A stretch of DNA of 64,000 bases from Elusimicrobiota bacterium (lineage in GTDB: Bacteria; Elusimicrobiota; Endomicrobiia; Endomicrobiales; Endomicrobiaceae): assembly GCA_031274365.1 (NCBI GenBank), contig JAISQF010000007.1, positions 8,081 to 72,080 on the forward strand, read 5' to 3'. A program made the position numbers and the translations under genes. Under the pieces are notes generated by a model, which was given only the letters and a program-made list of their open reading frames with translations, made no database searches and was not told where the DNA came from. Below, piece after piece: positions 2,326 through 57,212 of the stretch (its first letter is position 1; each line of letters opens with the position of its first letter).

Positions 2326-2355
2326 ATTATAATTTATCTTTTTTTAACGCGTCAA
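2326..2355 (-). promoter_or_regulatory. sigma70-like promoter for metQ
   Basis: Minus strand TTGACG (2355-2350) - 18 nt - TATAAT (2331-2326). Confidence 0.5.
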
Positions 2356-2370
2356 CATTTTGTAACATCA

Positions 2371-2762
2371 CTTAACATACTAGACTTTTTATAATAATAG
2401 GTTAAATGAACTTGACAGCATAATTTAATTATTTTGTCGTGTCTTTATTTATATAAAGTTTTTTAGCGGAGACCGAGCAGCCTGAAAGGCTGGATTTTCA
2501 TAACCGTAGGCCAGCGGCCTGCGGAAAAGCCCCCCCCACGTTTTTTCTGCCTGAAAGGCAGGACTACATAAAGGCAGCACGGCACGGGGGCGCGAGCAAG
2601 CTCTGCGCAAGGTAGAGAGAGCAGATGTTATTACAATCCACGGGTCGTTGACCCGCGGTTATGAAAATCCAGCCCTACGGGCTGTAATGCAAAATAAAGT
2701 GTCGCCCCGTGCAAAACTTCTACGACAAAAACATAAGTCTATTATCTGTTTGAGGTTTTTCA
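2371..2762 (+). repeat. modular intergenic element, architecture L arm - class A core - R arm (copy 1)
   Basis: L arm and R arm near-identical to 56281-56657 and related to 5621-6466; core homologous to 5822-6127; no conserved ORF. Confidence 0.85.
2475..2715 (+). ncRNA. candidate structured RNA, class A core (unclassified)
   Basis: Perfect 15-bp long-range helix 2492-2506/2656-2670 plus at least 5 local hairpins; G+C-rich island in AT-rich DNA; strand inferred from G.T pairs. Confidence 0.4.
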
Positions 2763-2775
2763 CATTTTTATAAAA

Positions 2776-3456
2776 CTAATGTGAGATTTTTTTAATAACA
2801 TAATCTCCAAGCGTTTGAATCGCCGTTACTATAAGAACTAAAATTACAACCGTGACTATAGTCACATCCGTTTGATAACGTTGATAACCATAACGAATTG
2901 CAAAGTCTCCAAGTCCTCCGCCGCCTATCGCGCCCGCCATAGCGGTAAGACCCACTAAACTGATAAATGTAATAGTCACTCCGCGTATAATTGACGGAAT
3001 GCTTTCCTTAAAATATACGCGAAAAATTATGCTCACGGGGCTTATGCCCATAGCCAAAGCCGCTTCTATCGTTCCTCTGTCAATTTCTGCCAAAGCCGCC
3101 TGCATCTGTCTTGTGAAAAACGGCGCCGTGCCGACTATTAAAGGCACCATTGCGCCTTTCGTTCCTATCGCCGTGCCGACGATAGCTCTGGTAACAGGTA
3201 TTAAAAGAGCAAGCAAAATTATAAAAGGAACTGAGCGGAAAAAATTTATCACTTTATCAAGAATAGTCCAAAAAACCAGATTCTCCAAAATATCGCCTTT
3301 TCTTGTTACCACAAGCAAAACTCCAAAAACAATACCTATACAAAAAGATATTATTCCGCTGATAAGCATCATATAAAGAGTTTGTCCGGTGCAAAGCAAA
3401 AGCTCGGGAATTTTGTCCATAACATTTGGAAAAAGATATTCTATAATTTTAGTCAT
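2776..3456 (-). CDS. metI: methionine ABC transporter permease
   Basis: 226-aa polytopic membrane ORF, MetI-type BPD permease; overlaps metN stop by 8 nt. Confidence 0.9.
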   Translation of the reverse strand: MTKIIEYLFPNVMDKIPELLLCTGQTLYMMLISGIISFCIGIVFGVLLVVTRKGDILENLVFWTILDKVINFFRSVPFIILLALLIPVTRAIVGTAIGTKGAMVPLIVGTAPFFTRQMQAALAEIDRGTIEAALAMGISPVSIIFRVYFKESIPSIIRGVTITFISLVGLTAMAGAIGGGGLGDFAIRYGYQRYQTDVTIVTVVILVLIVTAIQTLGDYVIKKISH

Positions 3457-4518: not shown

Positions 4519-5331
4519 TTAAAAAGCCGGAACCACAGCTCCATTATATTTCTTTTCTATAAATTTTTTCACATCGTTTGATTGCAAACTTTTTACCAAA
4601 GCCTTAATTGCTGGATCATTTTGTCTTGACGTTTTAACCACTATTAAATTTGCATAAGGCGAATTTTTAACGCTTTCGCGCGCAAGAACCGGATCTTTTA
4701 TTCCAAATTCCAAAATTCTATTGGTGTTTGTTATATATGCGTCAAACTGATCTCCCGAGCGAACTATCAAACCTGCGTCTAATTCCTTAAGTTGAACAGG
4801 CTTTAGGAATTTTTCAATATCGTTTTTTGTGGCTTGATAAGATTTAATACCCTTTTTTAGCGTCAAAAATCCTTCTTGCTGCAATAATAAAAGCGCTCTG
4901 TATTCATTTGACGGATCGTTTGGAATAGCGATTATAGGATTTGCGGGAAGGTCCGAAAGTTTTTTGTATTTATGAGAATACAAACCAATCGGCTCTATAT
5001 GAATAGCGCCCACAGACACTAAATCAAGTTTTCTGCCCACAGACGCGGCTTCCAAAAAAGGCAAATGTTGAAAATAATTTGCGTCATAATATCCCTCATC
5101 GGTTTGAGTATTTATCAAAGTCCATTCACTCGTTACATAAATTTGCAAATCAATCCCTTCTTTAGCAAGTTTAGGTTTTACAAATTCTAAAATTTCAGCA
5201 TGGGGAACTGCGTCTGCCGCAACTTTTAACACAACCTTTTTAGCTTGAGCCGATACATCCTGATTTCCAATAAACAAAATTCCCGCAATTGAAAATGCGG
5301 CGATTGTTAATACTGATAATATTTTTTTCAT
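4519..5331 (-). CDS. metQ: MetQ/NlpA-family substrate-binding protein (second paralog)
   Basis: 270 aa, signal peptide, NlpA-family similarity to 1413-2228 product; first gene of metQNI unit. Confidence 0.88.
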   Translation of the reverse strand: MKKILSVLTIAAFSIAGILFIGNQDVSAQAKKVVLKVAADAVPHAEILEFVKPKLAKEGIDLQIYVTSEWTLINTQTDEGYYDANYFQHLPFLEAASVGRKLDLVSVGAIHIEPIGLYSHKYKKLSDLPANPIIAIPNDPSNEYRALLLLQQEGFLTLKKGIKSYQATKNDIEKFLKPVQLKELDAGLIVRSGDQFDAYITNTNRILEFGIKDPVLARESVKNSPYANLIVVKTSRQNDPAIKALVKSLQSNDVKKFIEKKYNGAVVPAF

Positions 5332-5393: not shown

Positions 5394-5456
5394 TTAAAAT
5401 TTTTGATTAAGACAACATCGGAATCCGATTATAACTTCTTTTAATACATTTTTCAT
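5394..5456 (-). CDS. candidate 20-aa leader peptide MKNVLKEVIIGFRCCLNQKF
   Basis: Hand-found mini-ORF in the metQ2 leader, AAAGGAG SD 5 nt before ATG, tandem Cys codons; below ORF-track size cutoff. Confidence 0.3.
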   Translation of the reverse strand: MKNVLKEVIIGFRCCLNQKF

Positions 5457-5543: not shown

Positions 5544-5604
5544 ATAACATATAAAACATACTTGTTATATATGTTATATTAAATAATTATAAAAATTTTG
5601 TCAA
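5544..5604 (-). promoter_or_regulatory. sigma70-like promoter of metQ-metN-metI with overlapping 10-bp inverted repeat
   Basis: Minus strand TTGACA (5604-5599) - 17 nt - TAATAT (5581-5576); ATAACATATA (5544-5553) / TATATGTTAT (5568-5577) perfect IR overlapping the -10. Confidence 0.55.
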
Positions 5605-5821
5605 GTTTTTGTTAAATTTTTTAATATATTAGACTTTTTATGATAATAGGTTAAGCGAATTTTATGGCATAATTTAATGACGTGTAAAAATTCAACAATG
5701 CGCGCGGATTTTTTATATTTTTTATTTTTATTGTTTTAGCTTTTCTCTTTATAGCCTTAAAGGATAGATTTCCATAACCGTGTGCGACTATGCAAGGGAC
5801 GGATTAGTATCATATGGCGCA

Positions 5822-6127
5822 CAGCCTGAAAGGCTGGATTTTCATAACCGTAGGCCAGGCCTGCGCAAGCAAAATCACCCGTCTGCTCTCTGCCTGAAAG
5901 GCAGGACCCTCTGCCTAAAAGGTAGGCTACATAAAGGCAGCACGGCAATGGGCGCGAGCAAGCTCTGCGCGAGGTAGAGGGAGCGGATGCGACTACAGTC
6001 CACGGGTCGTTGACCCGCGGTTATGAAAATCCTGCCCTACGGGCTGCAAGGCAAAATAAAGTCCAAAACAGAAAACAAGAAAACTAAAGTAAAACAAAGC
6101 CTGAAACAAAACCAAGTGCGCCCGTGC
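5822..6127 (+). ncRNA. candidate structured RNA, class A core (copy 2, with insertions)
   Basis: Same 15-bp helix (5836-5850/6018-6032) and hairpins as copy 1; one extra hairpin and an A-rich insertion. Confidence 0.4.
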
Positions 6128-6199
6128 TAAACTTATATATCAGAGATTATAGCTTTTGTCTTGTAGTGTCTTTATTTATCAAAGTTTTTTAGCGGAGAC

Positions 6200-6427
6200 C
6201 GCATTAGAGGACGAGACTATGAGTGAAATGTTTTTTTGGATTATCATTTGACGATGTGTGAGCCGCCCTTCCTTATGTCGTAATGCGCGGGGGCGGCGAG
6301 TTTGGCAAATGCCAAAAGAATGTTTGGCGTTTGCCAAAAAAACATAAACGAATGTCCGAAGCGGGCAGAGCTAAAAAACAAAAAAATATTTTAATGATAA
6401 AGAGTAAAGGCAAGTATCGTCTCTGCA
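6200..6427 (+). ncRNA. candidate structured RNA, class B core (copy 1)
   Basis: About 90 percent identical by eye to 56381-56607; pseudoknot-compatible helices and twin TTTGGC-N4-GCCAAA hairpins. Confidence 0.4.
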
Positions 6428-6514
6428 AGATTTTTACGACAAAAACACAAGTCTATTATATAGTTGTCTGTCATTACAATTTTGATGACTTGTTGAGGGA
6501 TGCAATTTTAATAC

Positions 6515-8383
6515 TTAACCGATATGCGCCGCCGAAGTTTTTGAGCGGATATATTTTCCGCCCCAGAAAAGCAAGGCAAATAAAATCCATCCAGCTGCGG
6601 AAAGAATATAACTGCTATGAATTGCAGTTATGATTACAATGGCATAAAGCAATTGTTCAAAAGTTGTAATTTTTTGTTCGGTATATCCTTGAATTATAAT
6701 AGCGGCAGAATAACAAATTGTAAAAGAAGAAAGCCAAGTGGATAGAGTCAAGAAATCAAATCCAAAATGAAGATAATCGGAATTCAAAACAAAAGTAAAA
6801 GGCAAAGCAAATCCGGCAATTCCTAATTTTACCGCCGTAAGTCCTATTTTCATAGCATTCTCGCCGGCTATACCGGCGGCGGCATAAGAAGCTACTGCCA
6901 CAGGCGGAGTGATGGCTGAAATTGATGCAAAATATAAAAGAAATAAATGAGCGGGTAAAGGCGCAATGCCAATTTTTACCAAAGCCGGCGCAATAGCTGT
7001 GGCGCAAATAATATATGCCGCCGTCGTCGGCAAACCCATACCTAAAATAATACAAATCAGCATAGCGAGTATCAAACTTAAAAGTATGCTGTTTCCGCCA
7101 AGCTGAACGATGAAATTAGAAAACTTAAGCCCTAATCCCGTGATTGCAAACATCGCTGTTACTATTCCGGAACACGCGCATGCGGCAACAACTTGAGGCA
7201 AAGTTCGTCCCGCCATTTGAAATCCTTGTAAAAATTTTGAAATCGACAGACGATTATCTTTAGCGATAATGCCGCAAACGGTTAAAGCCAAAAGAGAATA
7301 AATCACAGACATCATCGGAGTCATTTTCAATACTAATAAAGTAAAGAGTAAAACTCCAAGCGGAACTGAAAGTTTAAAACTTCTTTTTAATTCCGTTTTT
7401 AATTGAGGAATATCTTCCGGCGGCAACCCTTTCAAATTATATTTAACAGATTCTAAATCAACCATCTTAAAAAGCGTAACATAATACATCAAAGCCGGAA
7501 GCAAAGCCGCAAGACAAACTATCGCATAAGGAACACCAGCGATATCGCTAAGCACAAAAGCAGCGGCGCCCATTATCGGCGGCATAATCTGTCCGCCTGT
7601 GGAAGCCACTGATTCGACTGCGCCGGCAAAGCGCTTTGCATAACCCATTCTTTTCATCAACGGAATTGTAAAAGATCCGGTTGACATAACGTTTGCAACA
7701 ACGCTTCCAGAAATAGTCCCGAACATACAACTTGCTAAGACTGCCATTTTAGCCGGACCGCCGCGTTTTTTTCCGGTAAAAGCTATGGCAATATTTTGAA
7801 AAATTCTATCGGCTCCCAAAACATTTAGAAATGCCGCAAATAATAGAAATAAATAAATGTTTGACGCCGAGACTGCTATCGGCGTTCCGTAAACTCCTTG
7901 ATCGCTAAAAATTGTCAATACAACGCGCATAACGCTATATCCCCGATGACCAAGCAAGCCGGGCAAATCTCCGCCAAATAATGCATAAAACACAGTGGTG
8001 AGAGAAATCAGCGGCAAAATCCAACCAATTGCGCGGCGAGCCGCTTCTAAAACGAGCAGTGCAATAATAATTCCCATAATTTCATAGAAAAAATCAGGTC
8101 TGCTGTTTTGCATAATCACTATAAAATTATCATAATTTGCAATTACCGATATGCCCACTGAAAGAGAAAGAGCGATTAAAAACCAATCTAAAACGAGCCA
8201 TTTTTTTGAACCGTTTTGAGCGCTCGGCTTGTATAAAAAAACAAATGTCAAACCGAGCATAAGATGCCAAGCGTAAAAGCGGATGCTTTCCATCGGAAAA
8301 AATGTGAATTGTCCAATATGAATAAATCCTGTCCATACTCCGAGAAGTATTGCAAAATAATTTCGAAATCTATCGTAAGTCAT
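6515..8383 (-). CDS. TRAP transporter fused permease subunit (TAXI-associated type)
   Basis: 622-aa highly hydrophobic ORF directly downstream of a TAXI-family receptor gene. Confidence 0.85.
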   Translation of the reverse strand: MTYDRFRNYFAILLGVWTGFIHIGQFTFFPMESIRFYAWHLMLGLTFVFLYKPSAQNGSKKWLVLDWFLIALSLSVGISVIANYDNFIVIMQNSRPDFFYEIMGIIIALLVLEAARRAIGWILPLISLTTVFYALFGGDLPGLLGHRGYSVMRVVLTIFSDQGVYGTPIAVSASNIYLFLLFAAFLNVLGADRIFQNIAIAFTGKKRGGPAKMAVLASCMFGTISGSVVANVMSTGSFTIPLMKRMGYAKRFAGAVESVASTGGQIMPPIMGAAAFVLSDIAGVPYAIVCLAALLPALMYYVTLFKMVDLESVKYNLKGLPPEDIPQLKTELKRSFKLSVPLGVLLFTLLVLKMTPMMSVIYSLLALTVCGIIAKDNRLSISKFLQGFQMAGRTLPQVVAACACSGIVTAMFAITGLGLKFSNFIVQLGGNSILLSLILAMLICIILGMGLPTTAAYIICATAIAPALVKIGIAPLPAHLFLLYFASISAITPPVAVASYAAAGIAGENAMKIGLTAVKLGIAGFALPFTFVLNSDYLHFGFDFLTLSTWLSSFTICYSAAIIIQGYTEQKITTFEQLLYAIVIITAIHSSYILSAAGWILFALLFWGGKYIRSKTSAAHIG

Positions 8384-15891: not shown

Positions 15892-15947
15892 CTAAAAATA
15901 TTCCCTTTGATAAAATTCTAATCAAATCTATCCAAGCCTATTCATAT

Positions 15948-16002
15948 AATTCATATCTAATAAGTATGAATTGATTGTATATAAAATTCCCATCTTTGTC
16001 AA
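15948..16002 (-). promoter_or_regulatory. sigma70-like promoter plus AATTCATA-N9-TATGAATT operator upstream of the Fe-S/metY unit
   Basis: Minus strand TTGACA (16002-15997) - 17 nt - TACAAT (15979-15974); perfect 8-bp IR at 15948-15955/15965-15972; extra half-site 15940-15946. Confidence 0.6.
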
Positions 16003-16075
16003 TTATACATTAAATCTCTTGGCGTAATAGATTTTTCATTATAATAAATATGCGCGGCGTTCTCTTTACTTTTTT

Positions 16076-16912: not shown

Positions 16913-16962
16913 TTTTTTCTCCTTAAACTATAATTTTATTTATAAAACAAGTATAATTCAAT

Positions 16963-17045
16963 CTATTCATACTATTCATACTATTCATACTATTCATACT
17001 TGTTAAATATGAATTAAGTGTATATAAAATTTATAGCTTTGTCAA
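16963..17045 (-). promoter_or_regulatory. paralogous promoter with the same operator plus a 9-bp x4 tandem repeat
   Basis: Minus strand TTGACA (17045-17040) - 17 nt - TACACT (17022-17017); AATTCATA-N9-TATGAATA; then GTATGAATA x4 (plus strand CTATTCATA x4, 16963-16998). Confidence 0.6.
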
Positions 17046-17401
17046 TACTGTGTTAAATCTTGCAAGTTCAATATGCTAATGCAACACTCTTGATTAAAAG
17101 AAGTCAAATCTGAAACAGGCGTTATAAGCACGGCGGAACATCTAAAATCTTAAGCGAATAGATGCATAGCGACCTGAAAACACAAACCATCATGAATAAT
17201 TTGGACATTGGGAAACTGACTTAATAGAGGGGCAAGGAGCGAGCTGACTATTGATTAGTGTGGAAAGATAAAAGTGATTAACTAAAATGCGTAAAGTGCA
17301 AAACAAGCATAGCGTCAAATTTGGATGTTTTTAATTATTCTATTGCAATAGCAATGTAAATGCGCCTATTTATAATATTTACTCATTATATTTCCCATCA
17401 T

Positions 17402-55181: not shown

Positions 55182-56066
55182 TTATTTCTCCTCCGCGCTA
55201 TCTTCTATAATACTTTCTTTTAATTGATTATTATCCGCTTGCAAATTATTATTTTCATTTTCTTTCGCCGCTTGCTCGTCTTTTTCAGGCTCGGAATGTT
55301 TAACACTTTCTTCAACATTATTGTTTTGAGCATTTTCCGCGCCGGCTTCTGCTCCATTTTCTTTCTCATCATCCTGCTTTTCAATTACCCCTTTGCCTTC
55401 TAAAACGGCGTCGGCAATCGTTGAACAAAAAAGTTTTACCGCTCTAATAGCGTCATCATTTCCGGGAATTGGATAATCGACTAAATCCGGATCGCAATTC
55501 GTATCGCATACCGCGACGATGGGGATATTTAATTTTCTCGCTTCCGATACGGCCGTAGCCTCCTCATGAGGATCGATTACAAACATAAGTCCCGGAAGTT
55601 TATTCATATTTTTAAGACCTTCCAAAGATTTTTCAAGACGGACTCTTTCTTTCTCTATTCTTGATTGTTCTTTTTTTGAAAGGAAATCAAAAGTCCCCTC
55701 AGTTTTCATTTTTTCAATTTCTTTATAGCGCTGAATTGATTTTTTTAGAGTTTCAAAATTTGTAAGAGTGCCGCCCAGCCATCTTTCGCATACAAAAAAT
55801 GCACCGCAACGCAAAGCTTCCTCTTTAATTGGAATTTGAGCTTGCTTTTTTGTCCCGACAAAAATAACTTCTTTTCCCTCGGAAACATAATCTCTCACAA
55901 CTTTGTAGTTTTTCTTAAGTTCTTTTAAGGTTTTCTGCAGATCAATGATATGTATTTTATTTCTTGTTCCAAAAATATATCTTGCCATTTTCGGATTCCA
56001 TCTTCTCGTCTGATGTCCAAAATGAACACCGGCTTCCAGCAAAGCTTTCATAGTAATTGTTGCCAT
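55182..56066 (-). CDS. rpsB: 30S ribosomal protein S2 with acidic C-terminal extension
   Basis: 294 aa; ..[19 protein letters not shown]..; about 60-aa Glu/Asn/Asp-rich tail. Confidence 0.95.
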
Positions 56067-56200
56067 TTACCTCTCCTTTTAGTTTTTTCTTTTAGGCTGA
56101 TTTATAGCCTTTAGACCTCCGCGGTTTTCAATATCCACAACCCCTTAATTTAATTTTCGGGGACATATGGCTAATCCAACCGCGTGCGTATTTTTCTATA
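56067..56200 (-). promoter_or_regulatory. structured rpsB 5' leader (possible S2 autoregulatory element)
   Basis: Minus-strand helices: AACCGCG/CGCGGTT (56178-56184 / 56120-56126) enclosing GGGG/CCCC (about 56158-56161 / 56141-56144), then AGGCT-N7-AGCCT (56094-56110) next to the SD. Confidence 0.35.
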
Positions 56201-56280
56201 TTTAACAACAACGTTAAGTATATCAAAACTTAAATCATTATACCTATTTAATCTATTTTTGCAAAGATATTGCTAAATCT

Positions 56281-56657
56281 CTTAACATATTAGACTTTTT
56301 GGATGAGAGGTTTAATAAATTAATAGCATAATTTAATTATTTTATCGTGTCTTTATTTATCAAAGTTTTTTAGCGGAGACTGCCTTAGAGGACGCGTCTA
56401 TAAGTGAAATGTTTTTTTGGATTATCATTTGACGATGTGTGAGCCGCTCTTCCTTATGTCGTAATGCGCAGGGGCGGCGAGTTTGGCAAATGCCAAAAAA
56501 ATGTTTGGCCTTTGCCAAAAAAACATAAACGAATGTCCTAAGCGGTCGGAGCTAAAAAATAAAAAAATATTATAACAATAAAGAACAAAAGCAAGTGTCG
56601 TACTTGCAGGACTTCTACAACAAAAACATAAGTCTATTATCTGTTTGAGGTTTTTCA
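56281..56657 (+). repeat. modular intergenic element, architecture L arm - class B core - R arm (copy 3)
   Basis: Arms near-identical to 2371-2762; core about 90 percent identical by eye to 6200-6427. Confidence 0.85.
56381..56607 (+). ncRNA. candidate structured RNA, class B core (copy 2)
   Basis: Same pseudoknot-compatible helices and twin hairpins as 6200-6427; helix substitutions keep pairing only on the plus strand. Confidence 0.4.
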
Positions 56658-56747: not shown

Positions 56748-57212
56748 TTATTTTATATCGATTATTCTTTTAGCATAATCCTCATGATTACTTTTAACGG
56801 CTTCATAAGGATAATCAAATAAAGACGAAGATATAATAAAATCTGCCGAAGACAATGTGCAGGCCACCACTATATTTTCAATCGACGACAATCTAATCAA
56901 TGCCTTTACGTCAACATCATGAGGCTGCATAGTCATCGGATCCGTAAGAAATACAAGAACGTCTATTTGATTTCCGGCTATTAAAGCGCCCATTTGTTGA
57001 TCGCCGCCCAGAGGGCCGGATTTAAGTCTTTTAACTTTTACTTTTAATTCGGGATATTTTTCATCATAAAAATCCTGAATAAGTTTTCCCGTTGTTCCCG
57101 TGCAAATCAAATTATGCGCGCTTATTTTCTTGGCATTAAAAGAAACCCAGCCCACCATCGCTTTTTTACAAGCGTCATGCGCTATCAAACCAATATTCTT
57201 TTTCTTTAACAT
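56748..57212 (-). CDS. mgsA: methylglyoxal synthase
   Basis: 154 aa; ..IGLIAHD..K.. and ..TGTTG.. motifs. Confidence 0.9.
   Translation of the reverse strand: MLKKKNIGLIAHDACKKAMVGWVSFNAKKISAHNLICTGTTGKLIQDFYDEKYPELKVKVKRLKSGPLGGDQQMGALIAGNQIDVLVFLTDPMTMQPHDVDVKALIRLSSIENIVVACTLSSADFIISSSLFDYPYEAVKSNHEDYAKRIIDIK

What the first reader, a model, noticed from the sequence alone, without database searches (positions are those of the whole stretch)
6200..6427. Class B core: pseudoknot-compatible helices and two identical palindromic hairpins spaced 22 nt apart
Four segments occur in pseudoknot order: CATT..ACGA (6245-6248, 6251-6254), GCCGCCCTT (6262-6270), TCGTAATG (6278-6285), GGGGGCGGC (6289-6297). 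Segment 1 pairs with segment 3 and segment 2 with segment 4, an H-type pseudoknot topology. It is conserved in copy 2. Immediately downstream are two hairpins with identical stems: TTTGGC-AAAT-GCCAAA (6301-6316) and TTTGGC-GTTT-GCCAAA (6323-6338). Their starts are 22 nt apart in both copies (56482 and 56504 in copy 2), and only a loop base differs between copies (GTTT vs CTTT). The spacing is about two DNA helical turns. The pair could therefore equally be two dimer-binding DNA operators (TTGGC-N-GCCAA type palindromes) or two protein-binding RNA hairpins. A terminal hairpin (GCAAGT-GTCGT-ACTTGC in copy 2, a looser version in copy 1) ends the core.
Basis: seen in the sequence. Interest (0 to 1): 0.65.

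Follow-up and report, generated by a model that had tools for sequence, protein, structure and literature searches.

The report
Hairpin-rich module of a mosaic intergenic repeat
The reported helices and twin hairpins are real and sit inside a roughly 300-400 base non-coding repeat found at three places in this Endomicrobia contig, but the proposed pseudoknot is no better than chance and the whole thing looks like a lineage-specific, modular intergenic repeat, possibly transcribed, not a known RNA or an operator pair.

Summary
All the segments are at the stated coordinates, in both copies (6156-6459 and 56337-56640, 89.5% identical).

What holds up:
- A 9-bp G+C-rich hairpin (6262-6270 with 6289-6297). 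Its two substitutions between the copies both keep pairing.
- Two identical palindromes, TTTGGC-N4-GCCAAA, 22 nt apart. As a single strand they fold better into one 16-bp hairpin (-23/-19 kcal/mol) than into two short ones (-13.6/-12.9).

What does not hold up:
- The pseudoknot stem (6245-6254 with 6278-6285) never varies between the copies. Its duplex energy (-7.6 kcal/mol) is matched by 46% of shuffles.
- The terminal hairpin is degenerate in copy 1.

Context: the "class B core" is one module of a mosaic element. The order is left module, 5' module, core A or core B, 3' module. It occurs at three intergenic sites, always on the + strand between minus-strand genes. It is absent from Rfam, phage and plasmid collections, genome and metagenome scans, and from the rpsB loci of eight related Endomicrobia assemblies.

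Two of those relatives carry variably present palindromic elements of about 125 nt with similar twin hairpins, different stem sequences and 29-31 nt spacing.

Best reading: a lineage-specific interspersed mosaic repeat (BIME/BOX-like). A plus-strand structured RNA is the main rival. A new member of a known kind, of modest interest.

The parts
6156..6459 (+). Class B unit, copy 1: end of the left module, 5' module, core B, 3' module. It is the second half of a tandem class A + class B element spanning 5596-6480.
   Evidence: 304 nt, 89.5% identical to 56337-56640. Identity falls to about 30% on both flanks.
56257..56657 (+). Complete class B element, copy 2: left module, 5' module, core B, 3' module. 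It lies between rpsB (55182-56066, minus) and an MGS-like gene (56748-57212, minus).
   Evidence: Full-length fold -104.1 kcal/mol, z = -5.25.
6262..6297 (+). Copy 2 is at 56443-56478.
   Evidence: -17.7 kcal/mol. Two substitutions, C6267T and G6289A, both keep pairing on the + strand (C-G to U-G, U-G to U-A).
6301..6338 (+). Twin palindromes TTTGGC-N4-GCCAAA, 22 nt apart. They also form a nested palindrome that folds into one 16-bp hairpin. Copy 2 is at 56482-56519.
   Evidence: 4 exact matches, 0.45 expected even allowing one mismatch. (long hairpin -23.1/-19.1 against two short hairpins -13.6/-12.9 kcal/mol). (16-nt arms, 94% complementary).
6245..6285 (+).
   Evidence: Complementary with a 2-nt bulge, but invariant between copies and at chance level. 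The nested alternative 6223-6230/6245-6252 is used in the consensus fold.
6166..6202 (+). Shared 5' module GTGTCTTTATTTAT..AGTTTTTTAGCGGAGAC. Also at 56347-56383, and at about 2443-2477 in front of a class A core.
6439..6459 (+). Best-conserved block of the shared 3' module, ACAAAAACAYAAGTCTATTAT. Also at 56620-56640 and 2725-2745. In copies 2725 and 56620 the similarity runs on to GGTTTTTCA (2762, 56657).
6184..6379 (+). Candidate long-range closing helices: GTTTTTTAGC 6184-6193 with GCTAAAAAAC 6370-6379, GACCGC 6197-6202 with GCGGGC 6361-6366, and TCTTTATT 6169-6176 with GATAAAGA 6396-6403.
   Evidence: One-sided pair-keeping changes only. They are built on U-runs and A-runs with several alternative partners, so they are tentative.
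6359..6438 (+). A-rich, poorly conserved 3' third of core B, including the terminal hairpin 6410-6426.
   Evidence: 78.8% identity against 96.4% for 6222-6358 (Fisher p = 8e-5).
56257..56340 (+). Left module, also at 2351-2430 and 5596-5678. Its left edge coincides with the -35 box of the minus-strand promoter of the downstream gene.
   Evidence: Minus-strand promoter-like sites TTGACG-18-TATAAT (2355..2326), TTGACA-17-TAATAT (5604..5576) and TTGCAA-16-TATAAT (56264..56237).
2478..2700 (+). Class A core, in the same frame of shared modules. The second copy is at 5822-6062. It is hairpin-rich (CWGCCTGAAAGGCWG family) with 29-48 nt inverted arms.

Best explanation
The region is the central cassette ("core B") of a lineage-specific, non-coding, mosaic interspersed repeat of about 300-400 bp in an uncultivated Endomicrobia genome. 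It is the same kind of thing as BIME/REP clusters, pneumococcal BOX elements or Correia elements.

The element is built from modules, in this order:
- a left module that abuts, and may supply, the -35 box of the downstream gene's promoter;
- a shared 5' module;
- one of at least two unrelated hairpin-rich cores (A or B);
- a shared 3' module.

Copies have spread or been copied independently of the flanking genes and have recombined. One locus carries a truncated tandem of A and B.

Core B consists of a 9-bp G+C-rich hairpin followed after 3 nt by a REP-like doublet of identical palindromes. Whenever the strand is single (during replication or transposition, or as RNA if transcribed), this doublet folds either as two small hairpins or, more stably, as one 16-bp hairpin.

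Shown: the modules, the copies, the hairpins, the absence from relatives, and the chance level of the pseudoknot.

Inferred: that the element spreads as DNA, and that its main consequence is to place strong hairpins and a promoter-proximal module between co-directional transcription units.
For: 1. Mosaic build. The left, 5' and 3' modules are shared at 77-94% identity between elements whose cores are unrelated (class A at 2478-2700, class B at 56384-56581). The locus 5596-6480 is a tandem of A and B with a truncated junction.
2. Four units at three intergenic sites in 64 kb, next to unrelated genes (metQ, metQ, rpsB).
3. Insertion-like presence. The gap upstream of rpsB is 681 nt here, against about 240-750 nt without any trace of the element in the eight relatives' assemblies looked at. 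The four added last were searched only by BLAST with other queries and for twin hairpins, not with the profile or the covariance model.
4. No homologue anywhere else. Rfam, phage and plasmid BLAST, a genome-collection scan, a metagenome scan, viral scans, and a profile and a covariance model run on relatives all gave nothing.
5. No coding signal and no tRNA or tmRNA.
6. Twin palindromic hairpins of the same design form the centre of palindromic elements of about 125 nt in other Endomicrobia. Those elements lie at different loci in different genomes (L015 14970-15096 and L017 515-640, 76% identical, E = 1.6e-20). They are missing from the orthologous gaps of other relatives. There are 6 twin pairs in 145 kb of Endomicrobia DNA against 0 in 111 kb of control loci. 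Six further relatives' loci scanned have none.
7. The class A core is likewise built from repeated palindromes with compensated A-T/T-A swaps.
Against: - No terminal inverted repeats beyond an 11-nt match that I estimate is expected by chance. No target-site duplication, and no transposase or RAYT gene in the window.
- The copy number in the whole genome is unknown.
- Conservation is uneven: 96.4% in the structured core against 78.8% in the A-rich third, p = 8e-5. This looks like selection on the core, or patchy gene conversion.
- All three loci have the same orientation.
- The element is G>C and A>T on the + strand (G/C skew +0.16 to +0.25 in core B). Other intergenic DNA here has skew -0.27.
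- Wobble pairs fit only the + strand. These last two points fit a plus-strand RNA product.
- Sequence homology between the window's twin hairpins and the relatives' elements is not demonstrable: nhmmer E >= 1, and only a structure-driven covariance-model hit of 22 bits.
Confidence: 0.45

Rival explanations
1. A family of genuine structured small RNA genes transcribed from the + strand, antisense in orientation to all neighbours. The shared left module would hold the promoter and the shared 5' and 3' modules would form a common scaffold. Core B would fold as a multi-branch domain: closing helices, the 9-bp hairpin, and the 16-bp hairpin or twin hairpins that bind a protein or are cut by a double-strand-specific RNase.
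For: - Plus-strand consensus fold -68.95 kcal/mol against -47.45 for the minus strand. Eight one-sided changes all keep pairs on the + strand.
- G>C and A>T on the + strand inside the elements, opposite to the surrounding intergenic DNA.
- Structured core 96.4% conserved against 78.8% for the A-rich linker.
- Full-length folds with z = -5.25 and -7.16.
- A promoter-like TTGyCA-N18-TAAyAT at the same position of the left module in all three copies (9/12 match in one; 7-8/12 in the others, read).
- Same orientation at all three loci.
Against: - Folding z-scores are the same for both strands (-3.93 and -3.84), so the energy gap is largely compositional.
- The fold predicted from copy 1 alone is not kept in copy 2: 6 pairs kept, 8 broken.
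- No pair changes on both sides.
- The candidate promoter is weak, and there is no consistent plus-strand terminator.
- The proposed stem between the 5' and 3' modules is broken by two changes in copy 2 (read).
- No homologue in any relative, no expression data, and no sequencing run found.
Confidence: 0.3
2. The twin palindromes are two operators on double-stranded DNA for a dimeric regulator, in a dimer-of-dimers arrangement two helical turns apart.
For: - Perfect 6-N4-6 palindromes.
- Half-sites start at 6301, 6311, 6323 and 6333, so all lie on one face of the helix.
- The 38-nt stretch has only 2 changes between the copies.
Against: - The pair is about 230-250 bp from the rpsB promoter and about 700 bp from the metQ promoter, and downstream of any candidate plus-strand start.
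- There is no other site at any promoter in 64 kb. The only near-match is inside a gene.
- The two loops are complementary to each other (AAAT and GTTT), which an operator does not need but a long hairpin does.
- Similar doublets in relatives change the stem sequence with compensation and have 29-31 nt spacing.
Confidence: 0.07
3. One reading: an RNA whose core is an H-type pseudoknot (segment 1 with 3, segment 2 with 4) followed by two protein-binding hairpins.
For: - The four segments are in pseudoknot order and are complementary in both copies.
- The stem formed by segments 2 and 4 is solid.
Against: - The stem formed by segments 1 and 3 is at chance level: 46% of shuffles do as well.
- It is invariant between the copies.
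- It competes with a nested helix, and with an apical extension of the 9-bp hairpin that uses 6282-6285.
- Loop 3 is only 3 nt. That this is too short is my inference from general pseudoknot geometry, not a tool result.
Confidence: 0.05
4. The element works on the minus strand, as the terminator or 3'-end stabiliser of the upstream gene followed by the promoter of the downstream gene. It would be a punctuation cassette between co-directional operons.
For: - Terminator-like sites on the minus strand inside the elements: 56607..56591 GCAAGTACGACACTTGC+TTTTGTTC, 56519..56504 and 6338..6323 TTTGGCAAxGCCAAA+CATTyTTTT, 2684..2670.
- Strong minus-strand promoters at the left edge of all three elements.
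- One element sits inside a metN-metI-metQ gene row.
Against: - The hairpins used would differ between class A and class B, and between the two class B copies.
- The stems are weak (6 bp, 3 G-C pairs).
- The minus-strand fold is poorer and turns the wobble pairs into A-C mismatches.
- 300-400 nt is far more than a terminator needs.
Confidence: 0.08

Closest known systems
REP sequences and bacterial interspersed mosaic elements (BIMEs)
   Same: Extragenic and built from short G+C-rich palindromes combined with other conserved motifs into mosaics. The palindromy is kept by complementary changes. They sit between co-directional genes and inside operons (PMC2817692).
   Different: No GTAG head and no RAYT gene seen. 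The units are much longer (300-400 nt). The two palindromes are identical, not alternately oriented imperfect ones. Copy number is unknown and there is no sequence similarity.
Pneumococcal BOX elements (boxA-boxB(n)-boxC)
   Same: Conserved end modules with a variable middle, strong predicted folding, no known transposase, and possible transcription with neighbouring operons (PMC3049150).
   Different: Here the middle is one of two unrelated cassettes, not 0-8 copies of one module. The phylum is different and there is no sequence similarity.
Correia elements and other bacterial MITEs
   Same: Small non-coding interspersed repeats that can bring promoter elements to neighbouring genes and form RNA duplexes that are processed (PMC3049150).
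   Different: No convincing terminal inverted repeats or target duplication here.
Palindromic elements of about 125 nt with twin central hairpins in other Endomicrobia (found here: L015 14970-15096, L015 11790-11908, L017 515-640)
   Same: GAG, then a TTTSGS palindrome, an A/T-rich spacer, a second near-identical palindrome, then ACA. The two palindromes can pair with each other. The elements are intergenic and variably present.
   Different: Stems are TTTCGC-type, not TTTGGC. Spacing is 29-31 nt, not 22. They are flanked directly by A/T-rich inverted arms and lack the 9-bp hairpin. There is no significant sequence homology to the window.
gyrA RNA motif (RF01740), the best sub-threshold Rfam match
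   Same: Two adjacent hairpins over 6256-6352 and 56437-56533.
   Different: 17.4 and 14.4 bits against a gathering score of 45, E = 0.41 and 1.6. This is a chance-level resemblance.

Membership tests
H-type RNA pseudoknot | Two stems in crossing order, each better than chance | tested here: not met
   The stem of segments 2 and 4 is solid. The stem of segments 1 and 3 gives -7.6 kcal/mol, matched by 46% of shuffles.
H-type RNA pseudoknot | Covariation supporting both stems | tested here: inconclusive
   Only two sequences exist. Stem 1 never varies, and stem 2 has 2 one-sided pair-keeping changes.
Any Rfam family | Covariance-model score at or above the gathering threshold | tested here: not met
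   Only a tRNA in the whole window. The best local hits are 17 bits or less, with E >= 0.38.
REP/BIME | Extragenic, palindromic units assembled into mosaics | tested here: met
REP/BIME | Conserved 5' GTAG-type head next to the palindrome, and a cognate RAYT transposase | tested here: not met
   The heads are GAG, not GTAG. No transposase-like gene among the 20 window proteins scanned. The rest of the genome is not available.
REP/BIME | High copy number (tens to hundreds per genome) | not testable with these tools
   Only 64 kb of the genome is available. It holds 4 units at 3 loci.
MITE | Terminal inverted repeats and target-site duplication | tested here: not met
   Only an 11-nt internal inverted match, ATAyTAGACTT with AAGTCTATTAT, which I estimate is expected by chance. 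No duplication at the borders.
MITE | Presence/absence polymorphism at orthologous sites | tested here: inconclusive
   Absent upstream of rpsB in all eight relatives' assemblies looked at, but these are distant (rpsB 80-89% identical) and the upstream gene differs.
Trans-acting sRNA gene | Own promoter and terminator on the RNA strand | tested here: inconclusive
   A weak conserved promoter-like site in the left module. A plus-strand terminator-like hairpin only after the class A copy at 2760-2792.
Trans-acting sRNA gene | Detected transcript | not testable with these tools
   No public run holds this sequence.
Operator pair for a dimeric DNA-binding regulator | Palindromic sites in helical phase | tested here: met
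   Centres are 22 bp apart in both copies.
Operator pair for a dimeric DNA-binding regulator | Position overlapping or adjacent to a promoter, and recurrence in a regulon | tested here: not met
   More than 200 bp from the nearest promoter-like site that faces a gene. No other site at any promoter in 64 kb.
Intrinsic terminator | G+C-rich hairpin followed by a U-run on the transcribed strand | tested here: inconclusive
   Not met on the + strand. Weak matches on the minus strand, 6-bp stems with 3 G-C pairs.

The most novel reading that the evidence does not exclude
The elements are a family of stable structured RNAs that share one promoter and one 5'/3' scaffold but carry exchangeable core domains (A or B). 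They would be transcribed antisense to every neighbouring gene. In core B, the nested twin palindrome would be a switch between two hairpins and one long duplex, recognised by a dimeric RNA-binding protein or a double-strand-specific RNase. That would be a cassette-type RNA architecture not described in bacteria.
Probability: 0.12. Interest if true: 0.65.

Novelty: new member of a known kind. Interest (0 to 1): 0.3.

Why it matters
If the best reading is right, this is a first description of a modular interspersed repeat in an uncultivated Endomicrobia lineage.

- It matters for annotation. The element explains three of the largest non-coding gaps in the window and produces spurious ORFs of 50-116 codons.
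- It may matter for how such reduced genomes punctuate operons. One copy sits inside a metN-metI-metQ gene row, and each copy abuts the -35 box of the next gene's promoter.
- It could serve as a strain marker.

If the RNA reading is right, it would add a scaffold-plus-cassette family of structured RNAs from a phylum with almost no known non-coding RNAs.

The work also turned up a second family: palindromic elements of about 125 nt with twin hairpins in other Endomicrobia. This suggests that hairpin doublets are a recurring building block in this group.

Tried and rejected
- **Known RNA families.** Rfam at gathering and at permissive thresholds on all three loci gave nothing. ARAGORN found no tmRNA or tRNA-like gene.
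- **Homologues elsewhere.** BLAST of class B and of the class A element against phages and plasmids found none. A 19-mer of the 5' module in 185,579 genomes gave 2 chance hits. A 20-mer of the 3' module in metagenomes gave 3 chance hits. Four viral scans gave only chance hits or nothing.
- **Source genome.** Exact look-ups of the window's MetQ and S2 proteins found nothing on record. No sequencing run holds the sequence.
- **Synteny.** rpsB loci from eight relatives' assemblies lack the element. nhmmer profiles of core B, core A and the left module, and covariance model R1, found nothing convincing in the five relatives held at that point.
- **More copies in the window.** None found by BLAST or by the covariance model with filters off.
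- **CsrA-type sponge.** GGA is not enriched.
- **Coding.** Short ORFs are kept in both copies only because few bases differ. The 52-codon minus-strand ORF takes 7 amino-acid changes from 9 substitutions. The best plus-strand ORF (30 codons, 6302-6394) has 3 synonymous and 4 non-synonymous changes and no ribosome-binding site.
- **Stem between the 5' and 3' modules** (TTTTGTCGT with ACGACAAAA). It is perfect in the class A element but broken twice in copy 2.
- **Terminal inverted repeat.** An 11-nt match, which I estimate is at chance level.
- **Fold of copy 1 tested on copy 2.** 6 pairs kept, 8 broken.
- **Homology of the window's twin hairpins to the relatives' twin-hairpin elements.** Not significant, nhmmer E >= 1.
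- **Transposase, integrase or reverse transcriptase nearby.** None among 20 proteins scanned.
- **Literature.** Nothing on repeats or RNAs of Endomicrobia.

Full report
**Where the window comes from.** Ribosomal protein S2, encoded at 55182-56066 (minus strand), has its best database matches (80-89% identity) in Endomicrobium and Endomicrobia MAGs of the phylum Elusimicrobiota. No near-identical sequence is on record. The window's own proteins are not in the contig index, and no public run holds the sequence. The genome has 36% G+C, and almost all genes in the window are on the minus strand.

**The observation.** The region belongs to a 304-nt repeat, 6156-6459 and 56337-56640, that is 89.5% identical. 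Identity falls to about 30% on both sides.
- Between the copies, the twin-hairpin stretch differs at the loop base G6329C and at one spacer base, G6318A.
- The terminal hairpin is perfect in copy 2 but loses two of its six pairs in copy 1.

**Which parts are more than chance.**
- The palindrome TTTGGC-N4-GCCAAA occurs four times exactly, against 0.45 expected even when one mismatch is allowed.
- The helix 6262-6270 with 6289-6297 is a -17.7 kcal/mol hairpin. Its two substitutions between the copies (C6267T, G6289A) both keep pairing on the + strand.
- The stem that would create the pseudoknot (6245-6254 with 6278-6285) is different. The best duplex between the 40 nt upstream and the 18-nt hairpin loop is -7.6 kcal/mol. 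Shuffled sequences average -7.65, and 46% do at least as well.
- All eight of its pairs are invariant. The consensus fold instead pairs 6245-6252 with 6223-6230 and extends the 9-bp hairpin apically, using part of segment 3.
- From general pseudoknot geometry (my knowledge, not a tool result), a 3-nt third loop is short for crossing an 8-bp stem with a bulge. The pseudoknot is therefore unsupported, though not disproved.

**The twin hairpins.** Because both palindromes have the same stem, and their loops (AAAT and GTTT) are complementary, the 38-nt segment is a nested palindrome.
- As a single strand it prefers one 16-bp hairpin (-23.1 kcal/mol in copy 1, -19.1 in copy 2) over two 6-bp hairpins (-13.6 and -12.9).
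- G6329C turns the central U-G of the long form into a U-C mismatch. In the two-hairpin form it is neutral.

**The larger structure.** The "class B core" is one cassette of a modular element.
- The three intergenic regions are 2351-2762, 5596-6480 and 56257-56657.
- They share a left module of about 80 nt, a 5' module (GTGTCTTTATTTAT..AGTTTTTTAGCGGAGAC) and a 3' module (..ACAAAAACAYAAGTCTATTAT..).
- Between the shared modules lies either core B or an unrelated, equally hairpin-rich core A (2478-2700 and 5822-6062, 80% identical). Core A carries a family of CWGCCTGAAAGGCWG hairpins with compensated A-T/T-A swaps and 29-48 nt inverted arms.
- The middle locus is a tandem of an A unit and a B unit with a truncated junction.
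- All units are on the + strand. The flanking genes are all on the minus strand: metQ, the metN-metI-metQ gene row, a TRAP transporter gene, rpsB and an MGS-like gene.
- The left edge of each element coincides with the -35 box of a strong minus-strand promoter-like site for the downstream gene.

**Searches for relatives.**
- Nothing in Rfam.
- Nothing in phage or plasmid collections.
- Nothing but chance hits in the genome, metagenome and viral pattern scans.
- rpsB loci from eight related Endomicrobia assemblies lack the element upstream of rpsB. Profiles and a covariance model found no convincing copy in about 93-100 kb of their DNA.
- The window holds no further copy.
- There is no tmRNA-like gene, no enrichment of GGA motifs, no coding signal, and no transposase among 20 neighbouring proteins.

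**An unexpected lead.** The covariance model of the 9-bp hairpin plus the long hairpin gave a 22-bit hit in a relative (L017 524-609). Following it showed that two related genomes carry twin palindromic hairpins of the same design:
- L015 11823 and 11852;
- L015 15008 and 15039;
- L017 554 and 583.

Their features:
- Each has GAG before the first hairpin, an A/T-rich spacer, and ACA after the second.
- The stems are TTTCGC-type where the window has TTTGGC, a compensated G-C to C-G swap. Start-to-start spacing is 29-31 nt.
- They form the centre of palindromic elements of about 125 nt.
- L015 14970-15096 and L017 515-640 are 76% identical (E = 1.6e-20) although they lie in different gaps of different genomes. 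The orthologous gaps of other relatives are much shorter.
- Twin pairs occur 6 times in 145 kb of Endomicrobia DNA and not at all in 111 kb of unrelated control loci. Six further relatives' loci have none.
- Sequence homology to the window's doublet is not demonstrable (nhmmer E >= 1), so this is a likeness of design, not proven kinship.

Where the design recurs, the palindromy is kept, but the stem sequence and the 22-nt spacing are not. That speaks for a hairpin in a single strand and against a sequence-specific duplex operator.

**Which strand, and RNA or DNA.** Points in favour of a plus-strand RNA:
- The consensus fold of the two copies is -68.95 kcal/mol on the + strand against -47.45 on the minus strand. 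All eight variable pairs change on one side only and stay paired on the + strand.
- The elements are G>C and A>T on the + strand (G/C skew +0.25 and +0.16 in core B). The other intergenic gaps of the window have skew -0.27.
- The structured part 6222-6358 is 96.4% conserved, against 78.8% for the A-rich part 6359-6438 (p = 8e-5).

Points against:
- Folding z-scores are equal on the two strands (-3.93 and -3.84).
- Class A folds equally well on both strands.
- The fold predicted from copy 1 alone is not preserved in copy 2: 6 pairs kept, 8 broken.
- No pair changes on both sides.
- The only plus-strand promoter-like site conserved in position is weak (9/12, 8/12 and 7/12 matches; and reading). 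There is no consistent plus-strand terminator.

**Verdict.** The sequence features are real.
- The pseudoknot reading is not supported.
- The operator reading is unlikely.
- The best-supported description is a lineage-specific mosaic interspersed repeat built from palindromic modules, comparable to BIME/REP clusters and BOX elements (PMC2817692, PMC3049150). Confidence is 0.45.
- The main rival is a plus-strand structured RNA family (0.3). The two are not fully exclusive.
- It is a new member of a known kind, of modest interest.
- A genome-wide census and strand-specific transcript mapping would settle the question.

Noticed in passing
L015 14970-15096 and 11790-11908; L017 515-640 (L016 duplicates L015): A family of palindromic intergenic elements of about 125 nt in other Endomicrobia. 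The centre is a doublet of near-identical TTTCGC-type hairpins 29-31 nt apart, flanked by A/T-rich inverted arms. The elements sit at non-orthologous gaps in different genomes and are absent from the same gaps in other relatives.
   Followed up: partly
window 56070-56200, minus strand: The rpsB 5' leader is conserved across Endomicrobia, with invariant blocks such as GCACGC..GGATT.GCC and GGA.A..GAAA.C.GCGGA (alignment A6). No Rfam family reaches threshold here. It is probably an S2 autoregulatory leader. In L015 the leader also contains twin hairpins at 8080 and 8096.
   Followed up: partly
window 5397-5456, minus strand: A 20-codon ORF (MKNVLKEVIIGFRCCLNQKF) with a strong ribosome-binding site (AAAGGAGAAAATATG). 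It lies in the roughly 245-nt leader between the promoter-like site and the metQ gene at 4519-5331. It could be a Cys-Cys leader peptide or a small protein.
   Followed up: partly
L003 1617-1800: In the closest S2 relative, the gap upstream of rpsB holds 3.3 tandem copies of a 56-nt G+C-rich unit (89% matches). This is a different non-coding insertion at the same place.
   Followed up: no
window 2478-2700 and 5822-6062 (also 5745-5780, 5890-5925): The class A core has five to seven hairpins of the family CWGCCTGAAAGGCWG or CAGCCCTACGGGCTG with compensated A-T/T-A swaps. It also has a 14-15 bp long-range helix, GGATTTTCATAACCG with CGGTTATGAAAATCC, and a G+C-rich helix (2583-2592 with 2703-2711). 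That helix is kept in the second copy across a 65-nt insertion.
   Followed up: partly
window 6063-6118: A T-poor, A-rich linker with repeated AAAAC units lies between the class A and class B units of the tandem locus. The single class A copy lacks it.
   Followed up: no
window 15938-16017 and 16981-17060: An 80-nt direct repeat (78% identical) in two neighbouring intergenic gaps that flank a cyclase-family gene (family D10). The 489-nt gap 16913-17401 also lacks the C-rich skew of the other gaps.
   Followed up: no
window 2760-2792, plus strand: The hairpin TCACATT..AATGTGA followed by GATTTTTTT looks like a plus-strand terminator right after the class A element. It overlaps the stop codon of the convergent metI gene. 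The two class B loci have no equivalent.
   Followed up: no
window 6283-6633 (+), 6179-6337 (-), 56360-56518 (-): Spurious ORFs of 52-116 codons run through the repeat. An automatic gene caller could annotate them as hypothetical proteins.
   Followed up: yes
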